From Escherichia coli (GTDB taxonomy: Bacteria; Pseudomonadota; Gammaproteobacteria; Enterobacterales; Enterobacteriaceae), in the NCBI RefSeq assembly GCF_030013205.1, contig NZ_CP122648.1: a stretch of 64,000 bases of DNA; one strand, given 5' to 3'. The stretch's first letter is position 1. Every line of letters starts with the position of its first letter. The notes under the pieces were generated by a model. The model worked only from the letters and a program-made list of their open reading frames with translations. It was not told the DNA's origin and did no database searches. A program made the translations under genes and the position numbers. Positions 1,680 through 18,265 of this stretch are shown piece by piece.

Positions 1680-2031
1680 TTTGTCTTTTCTTGCATCTTG
1701 TTCGAAGGAATGCCTAAAGAGTTACCATAGATTTTGCGAATAGCACAAGATATTTTTTGGCCTATTTTTATGATGTCTTTAATAATTTCAAGAGAAATTG
1801 TTGTTTTTTAAAAAGAAAATAGTGAGTGAAAAAAATTCAATTTCAGTATGAATGTTGTTCCCTTCCTCGTAGTTCATCCTTTGCCCGCTGCATTTTTGCG
1901 AGCATCATTCCACCGCCAGAACAACTCAACTTCACTTACACAAATAAACCGGAATCAGCCACTAAAATTCACGAATTAGCGGGCTACAGCAGCGATATCT
2001 TATGCACATAATGGTGACTCAAGGAGGGCTT

Positions 2032-2211
2032 ATGTCACTGTCAATTGTTCATACCCGCGCAGCCCTGGGAGTAAATGCGCCCCCAATCACTGTTGAGGTA
2101 CATATCAGTAAAGGTCTACCCGGCTTAACGATGGTGGGCTTACCAGAAACAACGGTAAAAGAAGCCCGCGATCGCGTGCGCAGCGCCATTATCAATAGCG
2201 GATTTTTATAA
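2032..2211 (+). pseudogene. comM: comM (yifB) 5' fragment, truncated by island insertion after codon ~57
   Basis: Translation MSLSIVHTRAALGVNAPPITVEVHISKGLPGLTMVGLPETTVKEARDRVRSAIINSGF then diverges (L, stop) at the junction; the rest of the gene resumes at 16913. Confidence 0.85.
2194..2203. repeat. attL core copy (aatagcggat)
   Basis: Identical 10-mer at 16907..16916; lies at the exact point where the comM frame breaks. Confidence 0.5.
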
Positions 2212-2300
2212 ATTAGTGTTTTTTGCTGTTTCATAATGTGCCACGTTGTTCATTATGTTTTTGATTTTTAAGTCTATTACAATTTTCATTGTTCCAGCTT

Positions 2301-2353
2301 GTTCCACGTTGTACCCCTTTGTGCAATGATCGGTGTAGTCACTGGTGTAGTCA
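2301..2353. repeat. Subterminal left repeat (gttccacgttgt ... cggtgtagtcactggtgtagtca), candidate integrase arm-type site
   Basis: Imperfect ~55-bp direct repeat of 16781..16838 near the opposite island end. Confidence 0.45.
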
Positions 2354-2391
2354 TTTTTTTTGCAAACAGGGGAGGAAATGTGAGCAGAGCA

Positions 2392-3609
2392 ATGAACAAA
2401 CTGAGCGACACATTGTTAAGAAAACTTCATGGTAAGCCGGCGGAGAAAAATACGTTTTATAGCGATGGCGGAAATCTGAGCGTGAAATATTTAACATCAG
2501 GGAAATTGACCTGGTATTTCACTTACAGGGCGGGAACGGGAAGGGGTACACCACCGGAACGCCTGAAGCTGGGAAATTATCCTGATCTGAGCCTGAAAGC
2601 AGCCAGGGAAAAAGCAGCACAGTGTCGCGCATGGCTGGCAGAAGGAAAAAATCCACGCCATGAGCTTAATTACTCCATACAGGAAGCACTAAAGCCGGTA
2701 ACGGTGGGCGATGCGATCAGCTACTGGCTGGAAATGCACGTAAAGGAAAACCGTGTCGATTACGTATGCCTGAAAAGCCGCCTTAATAATCACGTCATAC
2801 AGCATATTGGCAATATGCCACTGGATAAATGCGAGTTACGTCACTGGCTGGCCTGTTTTGACCGGATACGCAAAAAATCACCCGTAACATCTGGCCACAT
2901 GATGCAGGCGTGTAAACAGGCGCTTAAGTTCTGCCGTAAACGTCGCTACGCAGTCAGTAACGTTCTGGATGATCTCAACGTGGTGGACGTTGGCAAAAAG
3001 CCGGGCATAAGCGAACGCGTGCTGAGCAACAAAGAACTGAGCGAATTATTACAGGCGCTGGATAAAAAAATATTCCCGCCCTACTACAGCGCACTAATCC
3101 GCCTCCTGATTGTGTTCGGCTGCCGGACCGGAGAACTGAGGCTGTCGGAGATCAGGGAGTGGGATTTTAAGGAAATGCTCTGGACAGTACCGAAAGAGCA
3201 CAGCAAAACGAAGGTCGCCATATTCAGGCCAATACCGGAAAGCATTTTGCCGTTCGTCACACAGCTGGTGGAGCAGAACAGGCACACAGGGCTATTACTC
3301 GGGGAACTGAAACAGGAAGCCAGCGTGTCGCAATACGGCAGATTCACGCACAAAAAATTAAACCATCCGCACTGGTCACTACACGATATACGGCGCACGT
3401 TTACCACGATGCTGAACGATTTAGGCGTGGATCCACATATTGTCGAACAACTCACCGCTCACCAGATGCCAGGGATGCAACGAGTCTATAACCACTCCCG
3501 TTATATCGATGCGAAACGTAATGCGCTGGATATGTGGACAGAGCGATTAGAGATACTGGCAGGTGCTCACGAAAACGTAACCACACTGCCAATAGCCAGA
3601 GAAATATAA
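2392..3609 (+). CDS. int: Tyrosine recombinase / phage integrase
   Basis: ORF 2299..3609; likely start ATG 2392 (MNKLSDT) after GGGAGGA at 2368-2376; C-terminal HDIRRTF...VYNHSRY region consistent with a tyrosine-recombinase catalytic domain; abuts attL. Confidence 0.85.
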   Translation: MNKLSDTLLRKLHGKPAEKNTFYSDGGNLSVKYLTSGKLTWYFTYRAGTGRGTPPERLKLGNYPDLSLKAAREKAAQCRAWLAEGKNPRHELNYSIQEALKPVTVGDAISYWLEMHVKENRVDYVCLKSRLNNHVIQHIGNMPLDKCELRHWLACFDRIRKKSPVTSGHMMQACKQALKFCRKRRYAVSNVLDDLNVVDVGKKPGISERVLSNKELSELLQALDKKIFPPYYSALIRLLIVFGCRTGELRLSEIREWDFKEMLWTVPKEHSKTKVAIFRPIPESILPFVTQLVEQNRHTGLLLGELKQEASVSQYGRFTHKKLNHPHWSLHDIRRTFTTMLNDLGVDPHIVEQLTAHQMPGMQRVYNHSRYIDAKRNALDMWTERLEILAGAHENVTTLPIAREI

Positions 3610-3627
3610 TTTTTTTCGCGATTTTTC

Positions 3628-3690
3628 AGAACGGACACAACGTGAAACAACGAGACACAACGACGAACAACGGCGAACAATCTGGAACAA
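3628..3690 (+). repeat. Array of six ~10-bp direct repeats (RAACAACG family) downstream of int
   Basis: acacaacg tgaaacaacg agacacaacg acgaacaacg gcgaacaatc tggaacaaac read directly from sequence. Confidence 0.4.
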
Positions 3691-3976
3691 ACTTGATTAT
3701 CATCTGACCGACACCCTAAAAAGTTGATTTTCAGTCGTTTTACTGGCTTTTTGTACATTGGCGAATCACTCTTAAAAACATGTAAAAAAGGCGTAAAAAC
3801 AGAATTTTACGCTACCGCATCACAATGAATTAAAAGAGTTTTTATTCTCATTACCCCACTTCTGTAAAACGACCGCCACCAGTGTTTGCCATTCCATAAA
3901 CACCCTGACACAATCCGACCCAACCCAACCCAATAATCCACCCAATGACTCTTTAAGAAACAACAAAGGGGGAATT

Positions 3977-4165
3977 GTGTTAAGCACAGATCGCTTTATA
4001 CGTGAAAAAGAATGTCAGCAACTTACAGGCCTGAGCCGTTCATGCCGCTACCGCCTGGAAAAAGCCGGACAATTCCCATCACGGCGTAAACTCGGTGGTC
4101 GTTCCGTTGGCTGGTCTTTATCCGAAGTTCTGGCATGGAAGGACAGCCGCGAGGCAGTTCACTAA
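3977..4165 (+). CDS. alpA: AlpA-family phage transcriptional regulator (62 aa)
   Basis: GTG start after AAAGGGGGA; translation LTGLSRSCRYRLEKAGQFPSRRKLGGRSVGWSLSEVLAW resembles the AlpA/prophage CP4-57 regulator HTH. Confidence 0.7.
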   Translation: MLSTDRFIREKECQQLTGLSRSCRYRLEKAGQFPSRRKLGGRSVGWSLSEVLAWKDSREAVH

Positions 4166-4217
4166 TCAGGCTGGCGGCACACAGCCGCCTCCCATCCACT
4201 AATACAGAGATTTAACC

Positions 4218-5018
4218 ATGAATACTGGATATACGCCTGTACAGGGGCGGGGCTTCGTTCGGCCTGAAAAACAGAATCTGCAAAATTTCGCTGAAATTAT
4301 TCCGGTTATTTCCGGCGTTATTGGTGGGCGTGAAACCACTATTGTTAGCGCCAGAGCGTTACATAAGGCGTTAGGTGTAGGGCGCGTTTTCCGTTCGTGG
4401 ATCAAGGGGCGCATTGAAGAATACGGGTTCACGGAAGGCGTGGATTATGAGGTTGTTGAATATTTGAGCCGACCCGATCCGGTGAGCGCAAAATCTCGCC
4501 AGCAAACCGCTCTTGAGTACATCATCACAGTGAACATGGCGAAAGAACTGGCGATGGTCGAACGTACCGAACAGGGCCGCGCCGTTCGCCAGTACTTTAT
4601 CAAATGCGAGGAGGAGCTACACAAGGTAGCGCCAGTGCGTTCCGCAGCGTTACGCCGGGAACTGAAAGCCCGTATCACCGTTGCCAGCTACTTTAAGCCA
4701 ATGTGTGCCGCGCTGGAGGCGTACCGGGCTGAACTGGGTAAAAACACGTTCCAGCACCACTACACCACGGAAGCCAATATGCTGGCGCGTATCGTGCTGG
4801 GTGGCATGACTGCAAAACAGTGGGCGCAGGCGAACGGCATCACAGGCGAACCACGCGACCACATGAGCACGTTGCAGCTTGAGCACCTTTCTTACCTTGA
4901 GCAGAGCAATATCACGCTGATTGAGTTAGGCCAGGGCTACCACCAGCGGAAAGCTGAATTAATTCGTCTTTCGCAGCGTTGGTTAGCCCGTCGCATGGAG
5001 GAAAACAGCCATGTGTAA
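4218..5018 (+). CDS. Phage antirepressor-like protein (266 aa)
   Basis: N-terminal ...TIVSARALHKALGVGRVFRSWIKGRIEEYGFTEGVDYEV resembles Bro-N/Rha/ORF6N-type antirepressor domains (recollection, unverified). Confidence 0.55.
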   Translation: MNTGYTPVQGRGFVRPEKQNLQNFAEIIPVISGVIGGRETTIVSARALHKALGVGRVFRSWIKGRIEEYGFTEGVDYEVVEYLSRPDPVSAKSRQQTALEYIITVNMAKELAMVERTEQGRAVRQYFIKCEEELHKVAPVRSAALRRELKARITVASYFKPMCAALEAYRAELGKNTFQHHYTTEANMLARIVLGGMTAKQWAQANGITGEPRDHMSTLQLEHLSYLEQSNITLIELGQGYHQRKAELIRLSQRWLARRMEENSHV

Positions 5019-5414
5019 CGCTCTGACCGTTACAAAAAGAGAAAGCGCCCCGTTGCCGGAGCGCCTTTGTGAACGAATAGCCTACTGCGCCATATTGCTT
5101 ACTGTCTACGAGGCAGATTATAGCGTTGTGGTCGCACAGAGTGAAGGCGCTGATCACCGTTACTACAGCACGCCAGAAATGCAGAATATTTTGCTGCAAA
5201 ATGCCGTTGGTCACGCCGTCCGGAAAGCAAAAAATTTTGCTGGTGGCGCGACTGATGCGATTTTGTCAGGTCGCCAGGTGCTGATCAATCTGATGTCTGA
5301 TTTCGTTCTGGATAAAACAAAGGCGACCGCAGAGGGTCGCCAGTGGGTATTACGGCAAATCAAACTTGAACGCATCACCAACAATGCCACATTTGCGGCT
5401 GGTGGGCAATGTGA

Positions 5415-5603
5415 TCAGTCAGATTTGGTTCGTTCCAGGGTTTGCAACGAGAGCTTTTTCCTGCGCTCTTTAAGGAATTTCTCAAGAGCAAACGAACAAG
5501 GTGCGAATCTTTCTGATTCATGCTCTATCTTTCTGCGCCGTCTTTTCCGTGTCGGTGATAATGTTTTGGTCAATTCTTTATCGGTCATTGTGTTGTCCTG
5601 CAT
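5415..5603 (-). CDS. Small basic hypothetical protein (62 aa)
   Basis: Minus-strand ORF with Arg/Lys-rich segment TRKRRRRKIEHESERF; downstream of the RHH gene on the same strand; no clear SD. Confidence 0.35.
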   Translation of the reverse strand: MQDNTMTDKELTKTLSPTRKRRRRKIEHESERFAPCSFALEKFLKERRKKLSLQTLERTKSD

Positions 5604-5645
5604 AGCAATGCGCCGTAGTTACTCACACCACGGCGCTGATAGTGA

Positions 5646-5843
5646 TTATTCTGATTCTTTGGCCTTCCGGCGCTGTTCATATTTTAATTTGCGTCCACAG
5701 GCATCTAAGACCCATGCGGAAAAATTAGCACTAGGATTAGTTAATTTTTCTTGTTCAACGCTGGCATCAATCCCATCTATAAGCTCATGTGGGAATCGAA
5801 TATTTTTCTTTGCTGATTTGTTGTTTGTGTTACCGCTAGACAT
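5646..5843 (-). CDS. Ribbon-helix-helix (CopG/Arc-like) putative repressor (65 aa)
   Basis: KKNIRFPHELIDGIDASV (beta strand) followed by NFSAWVLDACGRKL (helix) pattern; GAGG SD 7 nt upstream; start abuts the palindromic operator cluster. Confidence 0.55.
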   Translation of the reverse strand: MSSGNTNNKSAKKNIRFPHELIDGIDASVEQEKLTNPSANFSAWVLDACGRKLKYEQRRKAKESE

Positions 5844-5870
5844 TGATGCACCTCACTTAAATGGACTTTA

Positions 5871-5951
5871 TGGGCGCACACAATACAGCAAAAAAAATGA
5901 GATGTTAAGTATTGACATGTGCGCACACATGATTTTAATCTGTGCGCACAG
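5871..5951. promoter_or_regulatory. Divergent promoter/operator region with three TGTGCGCACA palindromes
   Basis: tgggcgcaca 5871-5880, tgtgcgcaca 5918-5927, ctgtgcgcacag 5940-5951; TTGACA at 5912-5917 with a 17-bp spacer and ttaatc as candidate -10, so operators sit in the spacer and just downstream. Confidence 0.5.
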
Positions 5952-6048
5952 TTTGAGTTTTGTCACTCAAATTAAGCAACGCCCCGCAGTGCTCGCAACA
6001 CATGCAGGGCGTCTAACCACCAACGATAGCAAGAGTATCGAGGTAGCT

Positions 6049-6252
6049 ATGAGAAATCATACCACACACCCGCAAGGGCGGGACTCGCACAACCTGAATA
6101 AATATATCTGGCGTTTTATCGCCCTGAGCACCGCACAACCGCGCGTGATTCACATCGTGGCCACCAGCGAACAGGAAGCACGCCAGCAATCTCCTGATGG
6201 CTGCGTGATGGTATTCGCTGCCCGTATTCGTCAGGGGGTAAGTCATGCATAA
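6049..6252 (+). CDS. Hypothetical small protein (67 aa), first gene of early operon
   Basis: Internal ATG of the long stop-free frame, preceded by GAGGTAG; 3' end overlaps the next start (ATG 6245). Confidence 0.4.
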   Translation: MRNHTTHPQGRDSHNLNKYIWRFIALSTAQPRVIHIVATSEQEARQQSPDGCVMVFAARIRQGVSHA

Positions 6253-6610
6253 CCTGTCAATTTCTGACCTTAACTGCATTCAGTTTGACGAGAAATTTAC
6301 CGGGCAGCTACTGGTCCATGTGGAGAACGGGCGCATAGTGCGTAATTACCACCTGCCGGATGGTGCAATTGCCGGAAGTGTTGAAGCATTGCTGGAACTG
6401 GCAGAGCGTGCGCGACTGATTAATCCGTCAACGTGCTATCACGATGATGATCTGCATTTTACCGGACGCATGGTGAGCCATTATGAAAACGGCGTTGAGG
6501 TATCCCGCGAACGTATGCGTGATGATTGCTGTTTCGGCACACTGCCGGAATTTATCGAGTTGCTGACCAGTTGCGGTTATCAGGTTATTCAGGGGGTGAA
6601 TTATGGATAA
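6245..6610 (+). CDS. Hypothetical protein (121 aa) with two copies of a ~50-aa repeat module
   Basis: FTGQLLVHVENGRIV...GSVEALLELAERA and FTGRMVSHYENGVEV...GTLPEFIELLTSCG within one ORF; overlaps neighbours at both ends. Confidence 0.6.
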   Translation: MHNLSISDLNCIQFDEKFTGQLLVHVENGRIVRNYHLPDGAIAGSVEALLELAERARLINPSTCYHDDDLHFTGRMVSHYENGVEVSRERMRDDCCFGTLPEFIELLTSCGYQVIQGVNYG

Positions 6611-6803
6611 TCAGCAAGCAACAATGACAATTACCCTGAGTGCGCCAGATGATTTCACCGGACGCATACTGGTTTACCTGGATAAAGGAAAAGTGAAATC
6701 ACAATGCCGACTGAAAAGTAATGAGATTGTTGGTTCTCCTGAATTTTTTTCTGAACTCTGTATTCGTGCGGAAATAAAACCGGAACTGCTGACAGGAAAA
6801 TAA
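6603..6803 (+). CDS. Hypothetical protein (66 aa), single copy of the same repeat module
   Basis: FTGRILVYLDKGKV...GSPEFFSELCIRAEI; start overlaps the previous stop. Confidence 0.6.
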   Translation: MDNQQATMTITLSAPDDFTGRILVYLDKGKVKSQCRLKSNEIVGSPEFFSELCIRAEIKPELLTGK

Positions 6804-6807
6804 AACC

Positions 6808-7098
6808 ATGAAAAAGAAAAATTCTGGCTTTACTGCCAGCGGCCTCTCTCGGCCTGAAATCCGCCCCGGTGATATTTTCCGGGACACCAGACGCGGGGGA
6901 CGGGTGGTTATTCGTCACGTTACGCCAGGCAATATCACCTACCGCCGTGAGGCTTACGAATATGACTGCGTAATGCCGCGCCGTCAGTTTGATCGTGATT
7001 TTATTCTGGTGGAAAACAAACAACTGGCAGTGGCGAGACGTGCAGCCACGAATATTAAAAAAATCCGGGCAATGTTGGTTGCGGGAGGTAAGAAGTGA
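6808..7098 (+). CDS. Hypothetical basic protein (96 aa)
   Basis: ORF with stop overlapping the GTG start of the helicase gene (GTGA at 7095-7098). Confidence 0.5.
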   Translation: MKKKNSGFTASGLSRPEIRPGDIFRDTRRGGRVVIRHVTPGNITYRREAYEYDCVMPRRQFDRDFILVENKQLAVARRAATNIKKIRAMLVAGGKK

Positions 7099-8507
7099 AA
7101 AACGCACCGAGTCTAAAATATCAGCCGAAGGATAAATTCACTGAGGTAATCATTTTTGCCGGGACGGATGCTTACGCCCATGCTCAACACTGGATTGAAA
7201 GTGAAGGACGAAAACACGGCGATAACGTGCCTCCTGTTTACCTGGGGCCAAAGCAACTGGCAGACCTGGCGAATATCCGCATTATTGACGAGAAACGCCG
7301 TTTTGCGCGTGTCTATATCGCGGGGGAGATAGAGCCAATCCAGATCAATACTATCGCTGAAAAGCTGGCGCTGGCTGGCGTACAGGAGGCGAAATTATAC
7401 AAAGGTATCACCGACCAGGAACCGGAGAACTGGCGCGACTACCTGCAACGGATCCGCGAACAGGCTGAGCGCGAAGAAATGCTTACTGACGAGCAATACA
7501 GCCAGCGAAAAACCACGCTACCAATGAGCATTGGATCGGAAGGATACGATTCACAGCTTAGCTATGTGGTTAAGGGTGTGATTCCGGCTAATTCGTTGTG
7601 CAGCACATACGGTGCGAGCGGTTCTTATAAGTCGTTCCTTGCGTGTTCGTGGGCGTGTCATGTTGCTACCGGTATCCCGTGGGGAGGTCGCAGGGTTGTA
7701 CATGGTGCGGTGATGTATGTCGTTGGTGAGGGCGGGATCGGTGTTCCTCGTCGTATCAAGGCATGGGAACTGGTGAACAGTGAGCAGGTGAAAAATCTGT
7801 ACCTGGTAAATCGTCCAATTTTTCCGGCCGCACCGAGTGATGTTGATGAAATGGTTATTGCTGCCCGACAGGTTGAGCAGGAAACGGGTAAACCTGTACG
7901 CATGATTATTCTGGATACTCTGGCGCGTTGCTTTGGTGGCAGCGATGAAAATGATGCGCGGGATATGGGGGCATTTGTCCATGGATGTGACGAACTGAAA
8001 CGGCGTACAGGCGCTACAGTGCTGGTAATTCACCATTCCGGCAAGGATGAAACAAAGGGTGCGCGCGGTTCCAGTGCGTTTCGTGCAGCACTGGATGCAG
8101 AGTACCGGATACGCCGTGAAGGTGCAGGCAGTGAAGCCCTGGTTATCGCATGTACCAAGATGAAGGATGCGGAGGAACTGAAAGAAATGGCTTGCGATTT
8201 GCGCGAGGTTGAGCTTTTCAAGGATGAAGGCGGGGAGTTAATCACGTCATTGGTGCTGGAGGATAAGCCCCGTCCGCCAGTTGAACTGGAGCGCATCGAG
8301 TACGCTGCTAACAAGACAGAGAATCACGTCGCGCTATGGGGCTGTATCCGTTCACGCACGCAACGCGGAGATAAATGCACTATCCCGTTGTTGCGCGATG
8401 ACATGAAAAAGCTGGGGTATGAGATGAAACACTTCCGGCGCTGGCTGTACAAGCTGGAAGGTGACGGCGTAATCACTATTGACGGTGATGACGTGCGCCC
8501 ACTGTAA
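7095..8507 (+). CDS. Replication helicase/primase-like protein, RecA-fold (AAA_25/RepA-like) ATPase (470 aa)
   Basis: GASGSYKSF Walker-A-like motif, MIILDTLARCFGG and LVIHHSGKDETKGARGSSAF motifs typical of RepA/DnaB-like helicases; iterons immediately downstream. Confidence 0.65.
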   Translation: MKNAPSLKYQPKDKFTEVIIFAGTDAYAHAQHWIESEGRKHGDNVPPVYLGPKQLADLANIRIIDEKRRFARVYIAGEIEPIQINTIAEKLALAGVQEAKLYKGITDQEPENWRDYLQRIREQAEREEMLTDEQYSQRKTTLPMSIGSEGYDSQLSYVVKGVIPANSLCSTYGASGSYKSFLACSWACHVATGIPWGGRRVVHGAVMYVVGEGGIGVPRRIKAWELVNSEQVKNLYLVNRPIFPAAPSDVDEMVIAARQVEQETGKPVRMIILDTLARCFGGSDENDARDMGAFVHGCDELKRRTGATVLVIHHSGKDETKGARGSSAFRAALDAEYRIRREGAGSEALVIACTKMKDAEELKEMACDLREVELFKDEGGELITSLVLEDKPRPPVELERIEYAANKTENHVALWGCIRSRTQRGDKCTIPLLRDDMKKLGYEMKHFRRWLYKLEGDGVITIDGDDVRPL

Positions 8508-16916: not shown

Positions 16917-18265
16917 ATGAATATCCGGCGAAAAAAATCACCATCAACCTTGCTCCAGCCGATCTGCCAAAAGAAGGGGGACGATATGATTTACCTATCG
17001 CCATTGCGTTGCTGGCGGCCTCAGAACAGCTTACAGCCAATAAATTAGATGAATATGAATTAGTCGGAGAACTGGCGCTTACAGGCGCTCTGCGTGGCGT
17101 TCCCGGCGCAATCTCCAGTGCAACTGAAGCTATTAAGTCGGGCAGAAAAATTATCGTCGCGAAAGATAACGAAGATGAAGTGGGGCTAATTAACGGTGAA
17201 GGATGCCTGATAGCCGATCATCTGCAGGCTGTCTGTGCGTTTCTGGAAGGTAAGCACGCTCTCGAACGCCCGAAACCAACTGATGCAGTATCCCGGGCAC
17301 AACAACATGATCTCAATGATGTTGTCGGTCAGGAGCAAGGAAAGCGAGGACTGGAAATTACCGCCGCTGGCGGGCACAACCTTTTACTGATTGGGCCGCC
17401 GGGAACAGGTAAAACAATGCTCGCCAGCCGTATTAATGGCCTGTTGCCAGATTTAAGCAATGAAGAGGCACTGGAGAGCGCGGCGATATTAAGTCTGGTA
17501 AATGCTGAATCAGTACAAAAACAATGGCGGCAGCGCCCGTTCCGCTCACCGCATCACAGTGCGTCGTTAACTGCGATGGTGGGCGGTGGTGCAATTCCAG
17601 GGCCAGGTGAAATTTCGCTGGCACATAACGGCGTGCTTTTTCTTGATGAGCTACCTGAATTTGAACGGCGTACACTGGATGCCTTGCGAGAGCCGATTGA
17701 ATCCGGGCAGATCCATCTTTCACGCACACGAGCAAAAATAACCTATCCAGCCCGTTTCCAACTTGTTGCGGCGATGAATCCCAGCCCTACCGGACATTAT
17801 CAGGGAAACCATAACCGCTGCACACCAGAACAGACATTACGTTATCTCAACCGGCTCTCGGGGCCCTTTCTCGACCGCTTCGATCTCTCACTGGAGATCC
17901 CATTACCGCCCCCCGGCATTTTGAGTAAAACGGTAGTGCCGGGAGAAAACAGCACCACCGTTAAACAACGCGTAATGGCCGCCAGAGAGCGCCAATTTAA
18001 GCGGCAGAATAAACTGAATGCCTGGCTGGATAGTCCGGAAATACGCCAATTCTGCAAGCTTGAGAGCGAAGATGCGCAGTGGCTGGAAGAAACGCTGATC
18101 CATCTGGGGTTATCGATTCGTGCCTGGCAGCGGTTACTGAAAGTAGCACGAACCATTGCTGATATTGATCAGTCCGACATTATCACACGTCAGCATTTGC
18201 AGGAGGCAGTTAGCTATCGTGCCATTGACCGTTTGCTCATCCATCTGCAAAAACTACTGACATAA
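16913..18265 (+). pseudogene. comM: comM (yifB) 3' portion, Mg-chelatase-like AAA+ ATPase, separated from its 5' end by the island
   Basis: In-frame continuation G(Y)EYPAKKITINLAPADLPKEGG...; Walker A LLIGPPGTGKTM; ends ...LIHLQKLLT. Confidence 0.85.

What the first reader, a model, noticed from the sequence alone, without database searches (positions are those of the whole stretch)
5011..5414. About 400 bp between the antirepressor gene and the repressor operon lacks a clean gene model
A plus-strand ATG at 5011 with a good SD overlaps the antirepressor stop and opens a protein-like frame for ~130 codons, but that frame has no stop until 6252. It would run antisense through two minus-strand genes and the operator region, where its composition becomes Ser/Leu/Arg/Cys-rich. 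Either a real short gene has lost its stop, or the start is spurious and the space holds a non-coding element.
Basis: seen in the sequence. Interest (0 to 1): 0.3.

Follow-up and report, generated by a model that had tools for sequence, protein, structure and literature searches.

The report
Stop-free read-through frame, like P4 eta
The 400 bp that seems to lack a gene is the start of a long reading frame kept free of stop codons, but not conserved as protein, across a satellite island's repressor genes into its Icd/Kil gene, as in phage P4's eta/kil pair, whose translation lets upstream transcription read through.

Summary
ATG 5011 has a GGAGGA Shine-Dalgarno, overlaps the antA stop, and opens a frame with no stop until 6252.

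In 43 of 44 relatives the same frame stays open to the stop of the Icd-like gene, although at least 10 different repressor cassettes lie between (ORFs of 258-598 codons). Within 5011-5414 substitutions fall equally on all three codon positions (41/47/41; antA 34/38/88), so no protein sequence is conserved. Stops are nevertheless avoided (0 of 2000 permutations) and indels are 3 or 6 nt.

Phage P4 has the same layout. Its eta frame starts at the vis/alpA stop, spans the immunity region and ends as kil, which is in the same family as the gene here (NF033153). Published work summarised in PMC10111431 says eta translation prevents termination of upstream-promoter transcripts.

The difference here is that P4's immunity RNAs are absent. 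Protein genes (YlcI/YnfO-type plus a 62-aa ORF) lie antisense inside the frame, sharing wobble positions with it.

The 400 bp also carries two minus-strand intrinsic terminators. Translation and the antitermination role are inferred, not shown.

The parts
4218..5018 (+). antA (AntA/AntB antirepressor family) gene. Its stop codon is overlapped by the start of the long frame.
   Evidence: PF08346, E 2.5e-23. PGAP annotation of the identical ETEC4079 record. Third-position excess 34/38/88 shows ordinary coding.
4997..5013 (+). Shine-Dalgarno GGAGGA (4997-5002) and ATG (5011-5013) of the long frame. The layout (ATGTGTAA) suggests translational coupling to antA.
   Evidence: Sequence. Invariant in all relatives that carry antA.
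5011..6252 (+). Eta-like read-through ORF of 413 codons, whose last 67 codons are the Icd/Kil-like gene.
   Evidence: ORF list. Open to the Icd-like stop in 43 of 44 relatives despite different cassettes. The other plus frames carry 13-35 stops. P4 has the equivalent frame.
5011..5414 (+). The finding itself: the 5' segment of the ORF. It evolves like non-coding DNA but is kept stop-free and in frame.
   Evidence: Variable columns by codon position 41/47/41. 0 of 2000 column permutations keep all 25 distinct sequences stop-free. Indels are only 3 or 6 nt. No Pfam, NCBIfam or PHROG match.
5032..5067 (-). Intrinsic terminator T2 on the minus strand: an 11-bp stem at 5067-5042, then CUCUUUUUGU.
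   Evidence: Terminator scan. Fold. The stem is 100% conserved, and a T-tract is present in three different flanking contexts. Two G-U pairs exist only in the minus-strand RNA.
5117..5145 (-). Promoter-like site TTCACT-17-TATAAT on the minus strand. With T2 it would give an antisense RNA of about 80 nt (about 5110 to 5032). This is a candidate only.
   Evidence: Scan, 10 of 12 matches. The hexamers and the 17-nt spacing are kept in three variants whose spacers diverged. It is absent from the short L004/L048 variants. Expression was not tested.
5229..5238 (+). A6T4 run, a frameshift hot spot. Some database relatives lose one base here and stop at TGA 5282-5284.
   Evidence: Proteins P0019, P0023 and P0025. 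ORF 5126-5284.
5312..5341 (-). Intrinsic terminator T1 of the leftward (YlcI-type) operon: GGCGACC-CUCUGC-GGUCGCC, then UUUGUUUUAU.
   Evidence: Scan. Fold. Variant stems stay paired through G-U only on the minus strand.
5415..5603 (-). 62-aa basic ORF, the second gene of the leftward operon. The long frame crosses it antisense.
   Evidence: phrog_21027, E 2e-13. A homolog is annotated by PGAP in relatives.
5646..5843 (-). YlcI/YnfO-family (DUF3950) gene, the presumed repressor. The long frame crosses it antisense in the phase that shares third codon positions.
   Evidence: NF041551, E 3.5e-16; PF13132. 18 of 19 minus-strand ORFs in 10 cassette types sit in this same phase.
5871..5950 (.). Divergent promoter/operator region with three copies of the palindrome TGTGCGCACA (5871, 5918, 5941). 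The rightward promoter TTGACA(5912)-16-TTTAAT(5934) is my own reading. The leftward promoter-like site is at 5908-5880.
   Evidence: This intergenic stretch has 0 stops in the long frame against 7 and 4 in the other two; P(open) 0.037 on shuffles.
6049..6252 (+). Icd-like / Kil-family gene (67 aa), nested as the 3' end of the long frame. Its stop overlaps the ATG of the next gene (6245).
   Evidence: NF033153, 71.8 bits. P4 Eta residues 146-193 hit the same model at 73.3 bits. Third-position excess 22/20/37.

Best explanation
The stretch 5011-5414 is the first third of an eta-like read-through reading frame (5011-6252).

Proposed mechanism. Transcripts from the upstream, helper-inducible alpA-antA operon continue rightward across the island's immunity cassette. 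Ribosomes that finish antA re-initiate at the overlapping ATG. They translate through the two leftward terminators, through the antisense of the two repressor-operon genes, and through the operator/promoter region. They terminate at the Icd/Kil-like stop, which overlaps the next start codon. Continuous translation would keep this transcript from premature, Rho-type termination. That would let the upstream promoter express Icd/Kil and the replication genes independently of the repressible promoter at about 5912-5939.

What seems to matter is that the frame is translated, not what it encodes.

Shown here:
- the frame and its coupled start;
- its conservation as an open frame across many cassette types;
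- the lack of amino-acid constraint;
- homology of the nested gene to P4 kil;
- the identical layout in P4.

Inferred:
- that the frame is translated;
- that translation prevents termination (by analogy with P4 eta);
- that the driving promoter is that of alpA.
For: 1. The frame is open in relatives. It runs from the same ATG to the Icd-like stop in 39 of 40 IMG/VR and E. coli relatives, with ORFs of 258-598 codons. It is also open in 4 relatives with other upstream genes. The other plus frames carry 13-35 stops over the same span.

2. At least 10 distinct cassettes lie between the start and the Icd-like gene. Their promoter/leader stretches are stop-free in this frame only, with P(open) 0.01-0.04 each on shuffles for the stretches of about 200 nt.

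3. 18 of 19 minus-strand genes sit in the one phase that shares wobble positions with the plus frame.

4. Region 5011-5414 shows no third-position excess (41/47/41), against antA 34/38/88 and Icd 22/20/37. Its substitutions still avoid stops (0 of 2000 permutations), and its indels are 3 or 6 nt.

5. In a sample anchored only on Icd-like, the median open run is 333 codons. The frame crosses the whole YlcI-like gene in 63 of 85 unique loci, and in 41 of 45 where the T2 element is present.

6. In P4 the frame ending at the kil stop is open for 217 codons, back to ATGs that overlap the vis stop. Both nested genes hit NF033153.

7. PMC10111431, citing Forti et al. [quoted passage not shown]

8. 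Relatives L033 and L038 carry P4-type isrK and C4 RNAs inside the same long ORF, which links the two systems.

9. [quoted passage not shown]
Against: - No expression, ribosome or Rho data exist for this element. The function rests on analogy with P4.
- The open frame is not universal. 22 of 85 YlcI/Icd loci have it closed. L033 is interrupted. The protein database holds truncated or frameshifted versions of 89-236 aa.
- The antisense-of-gene parts are cheap to keep open in this phase: P 0.15-0.79 under synonymous recoding.
- Relatives are mosaic and related, so they are not fully independent.
- In E. coli 042 (L004) the frame starts 136 nt after the upstream gene, without obvious coupling.
- No C-rich, G-poor stretch suggesting a Rho loading site stands out.
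- No P2-type late-promoter motif is present.
Confidence: 0.6

Rival explanations
1. The stretch is a purely non-coding spacer. It holds the convergent terminators of the leftward repressor operon, and perhaps a small antisense RNA. On this reading the ATG is not used and the long open frame is an inherited accident.
For: Two good minus-strand intrinsic terminators are present, with G-U-compatible variation only on the minus strand. A conserved promoter-like site lies between them. No codon-position signature is seen in any frame. PGAP calls no intact gene here in any relative. The antisense phase used is one that tends to stay open.
Against: Stop avoidance within 5011-5414 is significant (0 of 2000 permutations) and indels are multiples of 3. 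The frame stays open and in register through at least 10 different cassettes and their AT-rich promoter regions. The start overlaps the upstream stop in different gene contexts. P4 has the same layout, with a published function. The terminators and the read-through frame are not mutually exclusive.
Confidence: 0.17
2. A real small protein gene (about 90-135 aa) follows antA. In this strain it has lost its stop through a frameshift, for example in the A6T4 run at 5229-5238.
For: The start signals are good. Database proteins of 89-124 aa begin with the same MCNALTVTKRE sequence, and several end at TGA 5282-5284 after a one-base change in the A-run.
Against: There is no third-position excess. There is no family or distant homolog; all 92 hits are Escherichia or Shigella, at variable lengths. 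In the unbiased DNA samples the A6T4 form, with the frame running on to the Icd-like stop, is the rule. The short forms are heterogeneous frameshift products rather than a shared gene end.
Confidence: 0.05
3. The whole 413-aa product is a functional multi-domain 'Bro-network/Ash' protein whose N-terminal segments matter as protein.
For: PMC10111431 treats P4 eta as a Bro-network gene with swapped segments. PGAP names 214-236-aa versions 'Icd-like protein'. If the frame is translated, an N-terminally extended Icd/Kil is made.
Against: There is no amino-acid constraint in 5011-5414. The middle third is antisense to genes with curated family matches and to a promoter/operator region. The segments between are non-homologous among relatives. 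Only the last 67 residues match any family.
Confidence: 0.08

Closest known systems
Bacteriophage P4 eta/kil nested genes (Forti et al. 1999, J Bacteriol 181:5225, as summarised in PMC10111431)
   Same: A long ORF starts at the stop of the upstream gene (vis, the alpA homolog, in P4; antA here; an alpA-like HTH gene in relatives L003/L031). It spans the immunity region and the repressible promoter. It ends as a nested Kil/Icd-family gene of 65-67 aa, which is followed directly by the replication-operon genes.
   Different: P4's eta contains same-strand immunity RNAs (C4/CI at 8420-8507, isrK/seqA at 8615-8705). The window has none. Instead it has two protein-coding genes and their terminators on the opposite strand, plus palindromic operators. 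It has no P2-type late-promoter motif and no sid/delta/psu genes. The start is coupled to antA rather than to alpA.
'Bro zone' of Gram-negative phage-inducible chromosomal islands (PMC10111431; PMC6092414)
   Same: The order is int - alpA - Bro/AntA-type gene(s) - Ash/Icd-like - replication genes. The element is an island of about 14.7 kb integrated in a chromosomal gene.
   Different: Published descriptions call these islands unidirectionally transcribed with no known repressor. This island and most relatives sampled here carry a leftward YlcI/YnfO-type cassette with operators, embedded antisense in the long frame. No capsid or packaging genes are annotated here.
P1/P7 immI region (c4 RNA - icd - ant)
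   Same: An Icd-family gene lies next to an antirepressor-family gene, in a region where translation of icd controls downstream expression (established knowledge, from memory).
   Different: No c4-type RNA is present. The gene order is reversed (antA upstream of the Icd-like gene). The long frame crosses opposite-strand genes.
'Shadow' antisense ORFs opposite real genes
   Same: Across 5415-5843 the plus frame lies in the antisense phase that shares third positions with the minus-strand genes. That phase stays open easily.
   Different: The frame also stays open through about 400 nt of non-genic sequence on one side and about 200 nt of promoter/leader on the other. It joins a real gene in frame, has a coupled start, and does so across many cassette types.

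Membership tests
P4-type eta/kil nested-gene module | The 3'-terminal nested gene belongs to the Kil/Icd-like family. | tested here: met
   Window 6049-6252 hits NF033153 at 71.8 bits. P4 Eta residues 146-193 hit the same model at 73.3 bits. Both hit phrog_1743.
P4-type eta/kil nested-gene module | A longer ORF in the same frame begins upstream of the immunity-controlled promoter. | tested here: met
   The frame is open from 5011 to 6252, across the promoter/operator region 5871-5950. P4's frame is open 217 codons upstream of the kil stop.
P4-type eta/kil nested-gene module | The start of the long ORF overlaps, and so may be coupled to, the stop of the upstream gene (the alpA homolog in P4). 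| tested here: met
   ATG 5011 overlaps the antA stop at 5016-5018. GTGA overlaps the stop of an alpA-like HTH gene in L003/L031. In the window the upstream partner is antA, not alpA. Coupling itself was not tested.
P4-type eta/kil nested-gene module | The open frame is maintained by selection rather than by chance. | tested here: met
   43 of 44 relatives are open. 0 of 2000 permutations stay stop-free. Promoter stretches have P(open) 0.01-0.04. However, 22 of 85 YlcI/Icd loci lack it.
P4-type eta/kil nested-gene module | Translation of the long ORF prevents premature (Rho-dependent) termination of upstream-promoter transcripts. | not testable with these tools
   This is known for P4 only, through PMC10111431's summary of Forti 1999. 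The composition profile gave no clear Rho-site signal.
P4-type RNA immunity (CI/C4 RNA with seqA/isrK targets inside eta) | C4-family and isrK/c4-a1b1 RNA elements lie on the same strand within the long ORF. | tested here: not met
   The positive control, P4, gives C4 at 74.9 bits and isrK at 60.8 bits. The window gives nothing above chance at E up to 10. Relatives L033 and L038 do carry both.
P4-like satellite (in the SatelliteFinder sense) | Presence of psu, delta and sid together with an alpha-type primase. | tested here: not met
   PGAP annotation of the whole island lists a RepA-family helicase, ProQ/FinO, PerC, NUDIX, DUF2213 and a lytic transglycosylase-domain protein, but no psu, delta or sid. 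This rests on annotation only, not on profile searches.
Ordinary protein-coding gene in 5011-5414 | Excess of third-position substitutions, a family match, and a consistent stop among relatives. | tested here: not met
   Variable columns 41/47/41, against antA 34/38/88. No Pfam, NCBIfam or PHROG hit. ORF ends among relatives are variable or absent.
Rho-independent terminators (T1, T2) on the minus strand | A GC-rich stem followed by a U-tract, with variation that keeps pairing on the transcribed strand. | tested here: met
   Scan. Folds. G-U-only-compatible variants and a T-tract kept in three flanking contexts. Termination itself was not measured.

The most novel reading that the evidence does not exclude
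A conserved, sequence-agnostic 'translation corridor' runs antisense through the island's own repressor genes and operators. When a helper phage switches on alpA, ribosome-coupled transcription from the left would override the repressible promoter and, by convergent collision, also shut down repressor synthesis. This would be an induction switch not yet described for Gram-negative satellite islands, which are currently said to have no repressor. The conserved promoter-plus-T2 unit (about 5110 to 5032, minus strand) would make a cis-antisense RNA against the first codons of the corridor. That RNA would keep the corridor shut in the quiescent state, playing the part that CI RNA plays in P4.
Probability: 0.25. 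Interest if true: 0.7.

Novelty: new variant of a known kind. Interest (0 to 1): 0.5.

Why it matters
It explains a recurrent annotation problem. PGAP calls fragments of this frame 'pseudo Icd-like, missing C-terminus' or 214-236-aa 'Icd-like proteins', and calls nothing in the 400 bp.

It ties a large group of E. coli satellite-type islands to the best-studied regulatory trick of phage P4. Sequence from this region matched 1814 of 5426 complete genomes.

It shows that these islands carry a leftward repressor cassette, although the family is described as unidirectional and without a known repressor.

It gives a directly testable prediction: a single nonsense codon in a stretch with no protein-level conservation should be polar on the replication genes in a Rho-dependent way.

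It is also a clean natural example of selection for 'being translated' without selection on the product.

Tried and rejected
- Pfam, NCBIfam and PHROG searches of the 137-aa translation and of the whole 413-aa ORF found nothing outside the Icd-like end.
- The protein homolog search found only Escherichia/Shigella hits of variable length, with no distant family. The one 33%-identity hit, P0040, is a truncated antA fused in frame.
- Rfam on 3400-7400 and on 5000-6260 gave only chance-level matches.
- I looked for a Rho loading site through GC skew; nothing was clear.
- I looked for a P2 Ogr/Delta-type late-promoter motif (TGT-N12-ACA); none lies in the island.
- Third-position analysis cannot tell which strand is coding in 5415-5843, because the two frames share wobble positions. 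I relied on curated family matches instead.
- A three-round jackhmmer for YlcI-like ORFs over-expanded. I replaced it with a single-pass phmmer search.
- Forti et al. 1999 (PMC94026) is not held in the library. I used the summary in PMC10111431 and my own recollection.
- Two literature searches on eta/PLL/timm and on YlcI/YnfO/DUF3950 returned nothing relevant.
- I tried to locate the experimentally studied EcCICFT073 island in CFT073 by coordinates and failed.
- I rejected the idea that L004 (E. coli 042) is the published EcCIO42, because the marker gene cited for that island lies elsewhere.

Full report
**Context.** The window is 100% identical to E. coli ETEC4079. The region lies in an island of about 14.7 kb inserted in comM/yifB, at roughly window 2212-16900. 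The rightward gene order is:
- integrase, 2299-3609;
- alpA, 3977-4165 (PF05930);
- antA, 4218-5018 (PF08346);
- the finding, 5011-5414;
- two leftward ORFs, 5415-5603 (62 aa, phrog_21027) and 5646-5843 (YlcI/YnfO, NF041551 / DUF3950);
- a divergent promoter region with three TGTGCGCACA palindromes;
- the Icd-like gene, 6049-6252 (NF033153);
- small ORFs, a DUF4222 gene and a RepA-family helicase.

No sid, psu, delta or capsid genes are annotated.

**The observation.** It is correct in every detail. GGAGGA lies at 4997-5002. ATG 5011 overlaps the antA stop (ATGTGTAA). The frame has no stop until TAA 6250-6252, a run of 413 codons. The last 67 codons are the Icd-like gene itself. Its stop overlaps the ATG of the next gene (6245). 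Over the same span the other plus frames carry 24 and 29 stops.

**What relatives show.** The first 137 residues have no family match. Their 92 database homologs are all from Escherichia or Shigella and range from 80 to 236 aa. That pattern could be read as decay.

DNA samples chosen without regard to ORF length say otherwise. Forty IMG/VR loci were found with the 137-aa query, and several complete genomes were added. In 39 of the 40 loci with the same start, the frame runs from that ATG to the Icd-like stop. The ORFs span 258-598 codons, because one to three different leftward genes and different operator regions lie between. The only exception is L033.

Four relatives with another upstream gene are also open to the Icd-like stop:
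- L003 and L031 have an alpA-like HTH gene, with the start GTG overlapping its TGA;
- L004 has a BRO-N gene;
- L048 has a truncated antA fused in frame.

At least 10 distinct cassette types are crossed.

**Is the frame kept by selection?** Four lines of evidence bear on this.

First, 25 distinct sequences of 5011-5414 have variable columns spread 41/47/41 over the three codon positions. antA shows 34/38/88 and the Icd-like core shows 22/20/37. Because the three classes are equal, no frame on either strand is under amino-acid constraint.

Second, the same substitution patterns were moved to random columns with the same consensus base. None of 2000 trials left all 25 sequences stop-free; on average 12 sequences gained a stop. 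The only indels in this stretch are 3 and 6 nt, and a 45-nt insertion in L005 is also in frame.

Third, the promoter/leader stretches of about 200 nt have 0 stops in this frame against 2-8 in the others. P(open) on dinucleotide shuffles is 0.009-0.037. Roughly five of these stretches are unrelated in their operator part.

Fourth, 18 of 19 leftward ORFs sit in one phase relative to the plus frame. From the coordinates, this is the phase in which the third positions of both strands coincide, and it is cheap to keep open (P 0.15-0.79 under synonymous recoding). The antisense-of-gene part is therefore weak evidence on its own. The constant phase, the flanking non-genic parts and the in-frame junction with Icd-like carry the argument.

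**How general is it?** I sampled loci by the Icd-like gene alone.
- Clade 1 (73 unique loci): the median open run is 333 codons, and 54 loci have 250 or more. Often the first start codon lies within a few nt of the stop of an upstream plus-strand gene of varied family.
- Clade 2, a second Icd-like clade: the distribution is bimodal. Twenty-two loci have 250 or more codons, and 31 have fewer than 125.

With strict YlcI detection, the frame crosses the whole leftward gene in 63 of 85 unique loci. Where the conserved T2 element is present upstream, the count is 41 of 45. The arrangement does not by itself force an open frame, and the feature belongs to a large subset, not to all.

**The known parallel.** In P4 (NC_001609) the frame that ends at the stop of the old 'cI ORF' (8168) is open for 217 codons. 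It reaches back to three ATGs overlapping the stop of vis/ORF88, the alpA homolog. Its C-terminus hits the same NCBIfam model as the window's gene: NF033153, 73.3 against 71.8 bits.

PMC10111431, citing Forti et al. 1999, describes the function:
- Kil is the truncated form made from the internal constitutive promoter;
- eta translation prevents termination, so the upstream late promoter reads through eta and the downstream genes.

Rfam finds P4's CI RNA (C4) and its seqA region (isrK / c4-a1b1) inside eta. The window has neither. Relatives L033 and L038 have both RNAs inside the same long ORF, downstream of a YlcI cassette, which links the two designs.

[quoted passage not shown] The same paper calls these islands unidirectional and without a known repressor.

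**Most likely mechanism (inferred).** Transcription from the alpA-antA operon continues rightward. Ribosomes leaving antA re-initiate at 5011 and translate without interruption to 6252, then hand over to the next gene. Continuous translation would protect this transcript from premature termination. That would let the upstream promoter express Icd/Kil and the replication genes regardless of the repressor-controlled promoter (TTGACA 5912 - 16 nt - TTTAAT 5934, my reading, with operators in and after the spacer).

The layout, the conservation of the open frame and the homology are shown. Translation, Rho dependence and the identity of the driving promoter are not.

**Non-coding elements in the 400 bp.** Two minus-strand intrinsic terminators are present.
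- T1 lies at 5341-5322 with a U-tract to 5312. It probably ends the leftward operon.
- T2 lies at 5067-5042 (an 11-bp stem) with a U-tract to 5032.

These come from the scan and folds. Variant T1 stems, and two pairs in T2, are G-U pairs that exist only in the minus-strand RNA. The T-tract after T2 is kept in three unrelated flanking contexts.

Between the terminators, a minus-strand promoter-like site (5145-5117) keeps its hexamers and its 17-nt spacing in three variants whose spacers diverged. With T2 it could give an RNA of about 80 nt antisense to codons 8-33 of the frame. This is a lead only. It is absent from the short variants L004 and L048.

**Caveats.**
- The relatives are mosaic and share ancestry.
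- Truncated forms exist, including frameshifts at the A6T4 run (5229-5238) that stop at 5282-5284.
- About a quarter of YlcI/Icd loci have the frame closed.
- In L004 no coupled start is evident.
- All functional statements rest on analogy with P4.

**Verdict.** It is best described as an eta/kil-type nested read-through frame. This is a known kind, in a variant that carries an opposite-strand protein-repressor cassette instead of P4's immunity RNAs.

Noticed in passing
window 5871-5950: Three copies of the 10-bp palindrome TGTGCGCACA (one with a mismatch) lie within 80 bp between the divergent YlcI-type and Icd-like genes. One sits in the spacer of a TTGACA-16-TTTAAT rightward promoter and one just after its -10 element. 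This looks like an operator set for a protein repressor.
   Followed up: partly
window 5946-6052 (+): The presumed leader of the Icd-like gene folds into three hairpins (-33.5 kcal/mol, z -3.3, 0 of 200 shuffles as good). The last hairpin abuts the ribosome-binding site. The final 65 nt or so are shared among otherwise different cassettes. No Rfam family matches.
   Followed up: partly
window 5032-5145 (-): A conserved promoter-like site plus terminator T2 could make a cis-antisense RNA of about 80 nt covering the first codons of the long frame. Its 3' 60 nt are invariant among relatives, while its 5' 20 nt vary.
   Followed up: partly
L033 3652-3837; L038 3674-3859: Two relatives carry P4-type immunity RNAs (isrK at 80 bits, C4 at 76 bits) inserted inside the Icd-like reading frame, in addition to a YlcI-type cassette. 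In L038 the long frame stays open through both.
   Followed up: partly
L033, L036, L038, L043, L044, L047 (about 320-550): The Rfam 'int-alpA RNA' (RF02996) is present between int and alpA in several relatives. It was not detected in the window's int-alpA spacer (3610-3976), even at E up to 1.
   Followed up: no
window 5293-5650 (+): PGAP annotates a pseudogene here in the identical ETEC4079 record ('Icd-like protein, missing C-terminus'), overlapping the 62-aa leftward ORF, which it leaves uncalled. Similar pseudo calls occur in ETEC4090 and 042. They appear to be a by-product of long-frame proteins sitting in the reference set.
   Followed up: partly
window 5415-5843 and relatives: All leftward immunity genes lie in the one antisense phase that shares third codon positions with the long plus frame. 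The spacers between them measure 42, 48, 57 or 69 nt, all multiples of three.
   Followed up: partly
window 2002-2211 and about 16901-18265: comM/yifB is split by the island. The N-terminal fragment lies at the left end and the C-terminal part at the right end. The attachment-site repeats were not mapped.
   Followed up: no
window 5160-5245: Short internal similarity between 'ATATTTTGCTGCAAAATG' and 'AAAAATTTTGCTGGTGG'. One database relative (P0017) looks like a slip or duplication between them.
   Followed up: no
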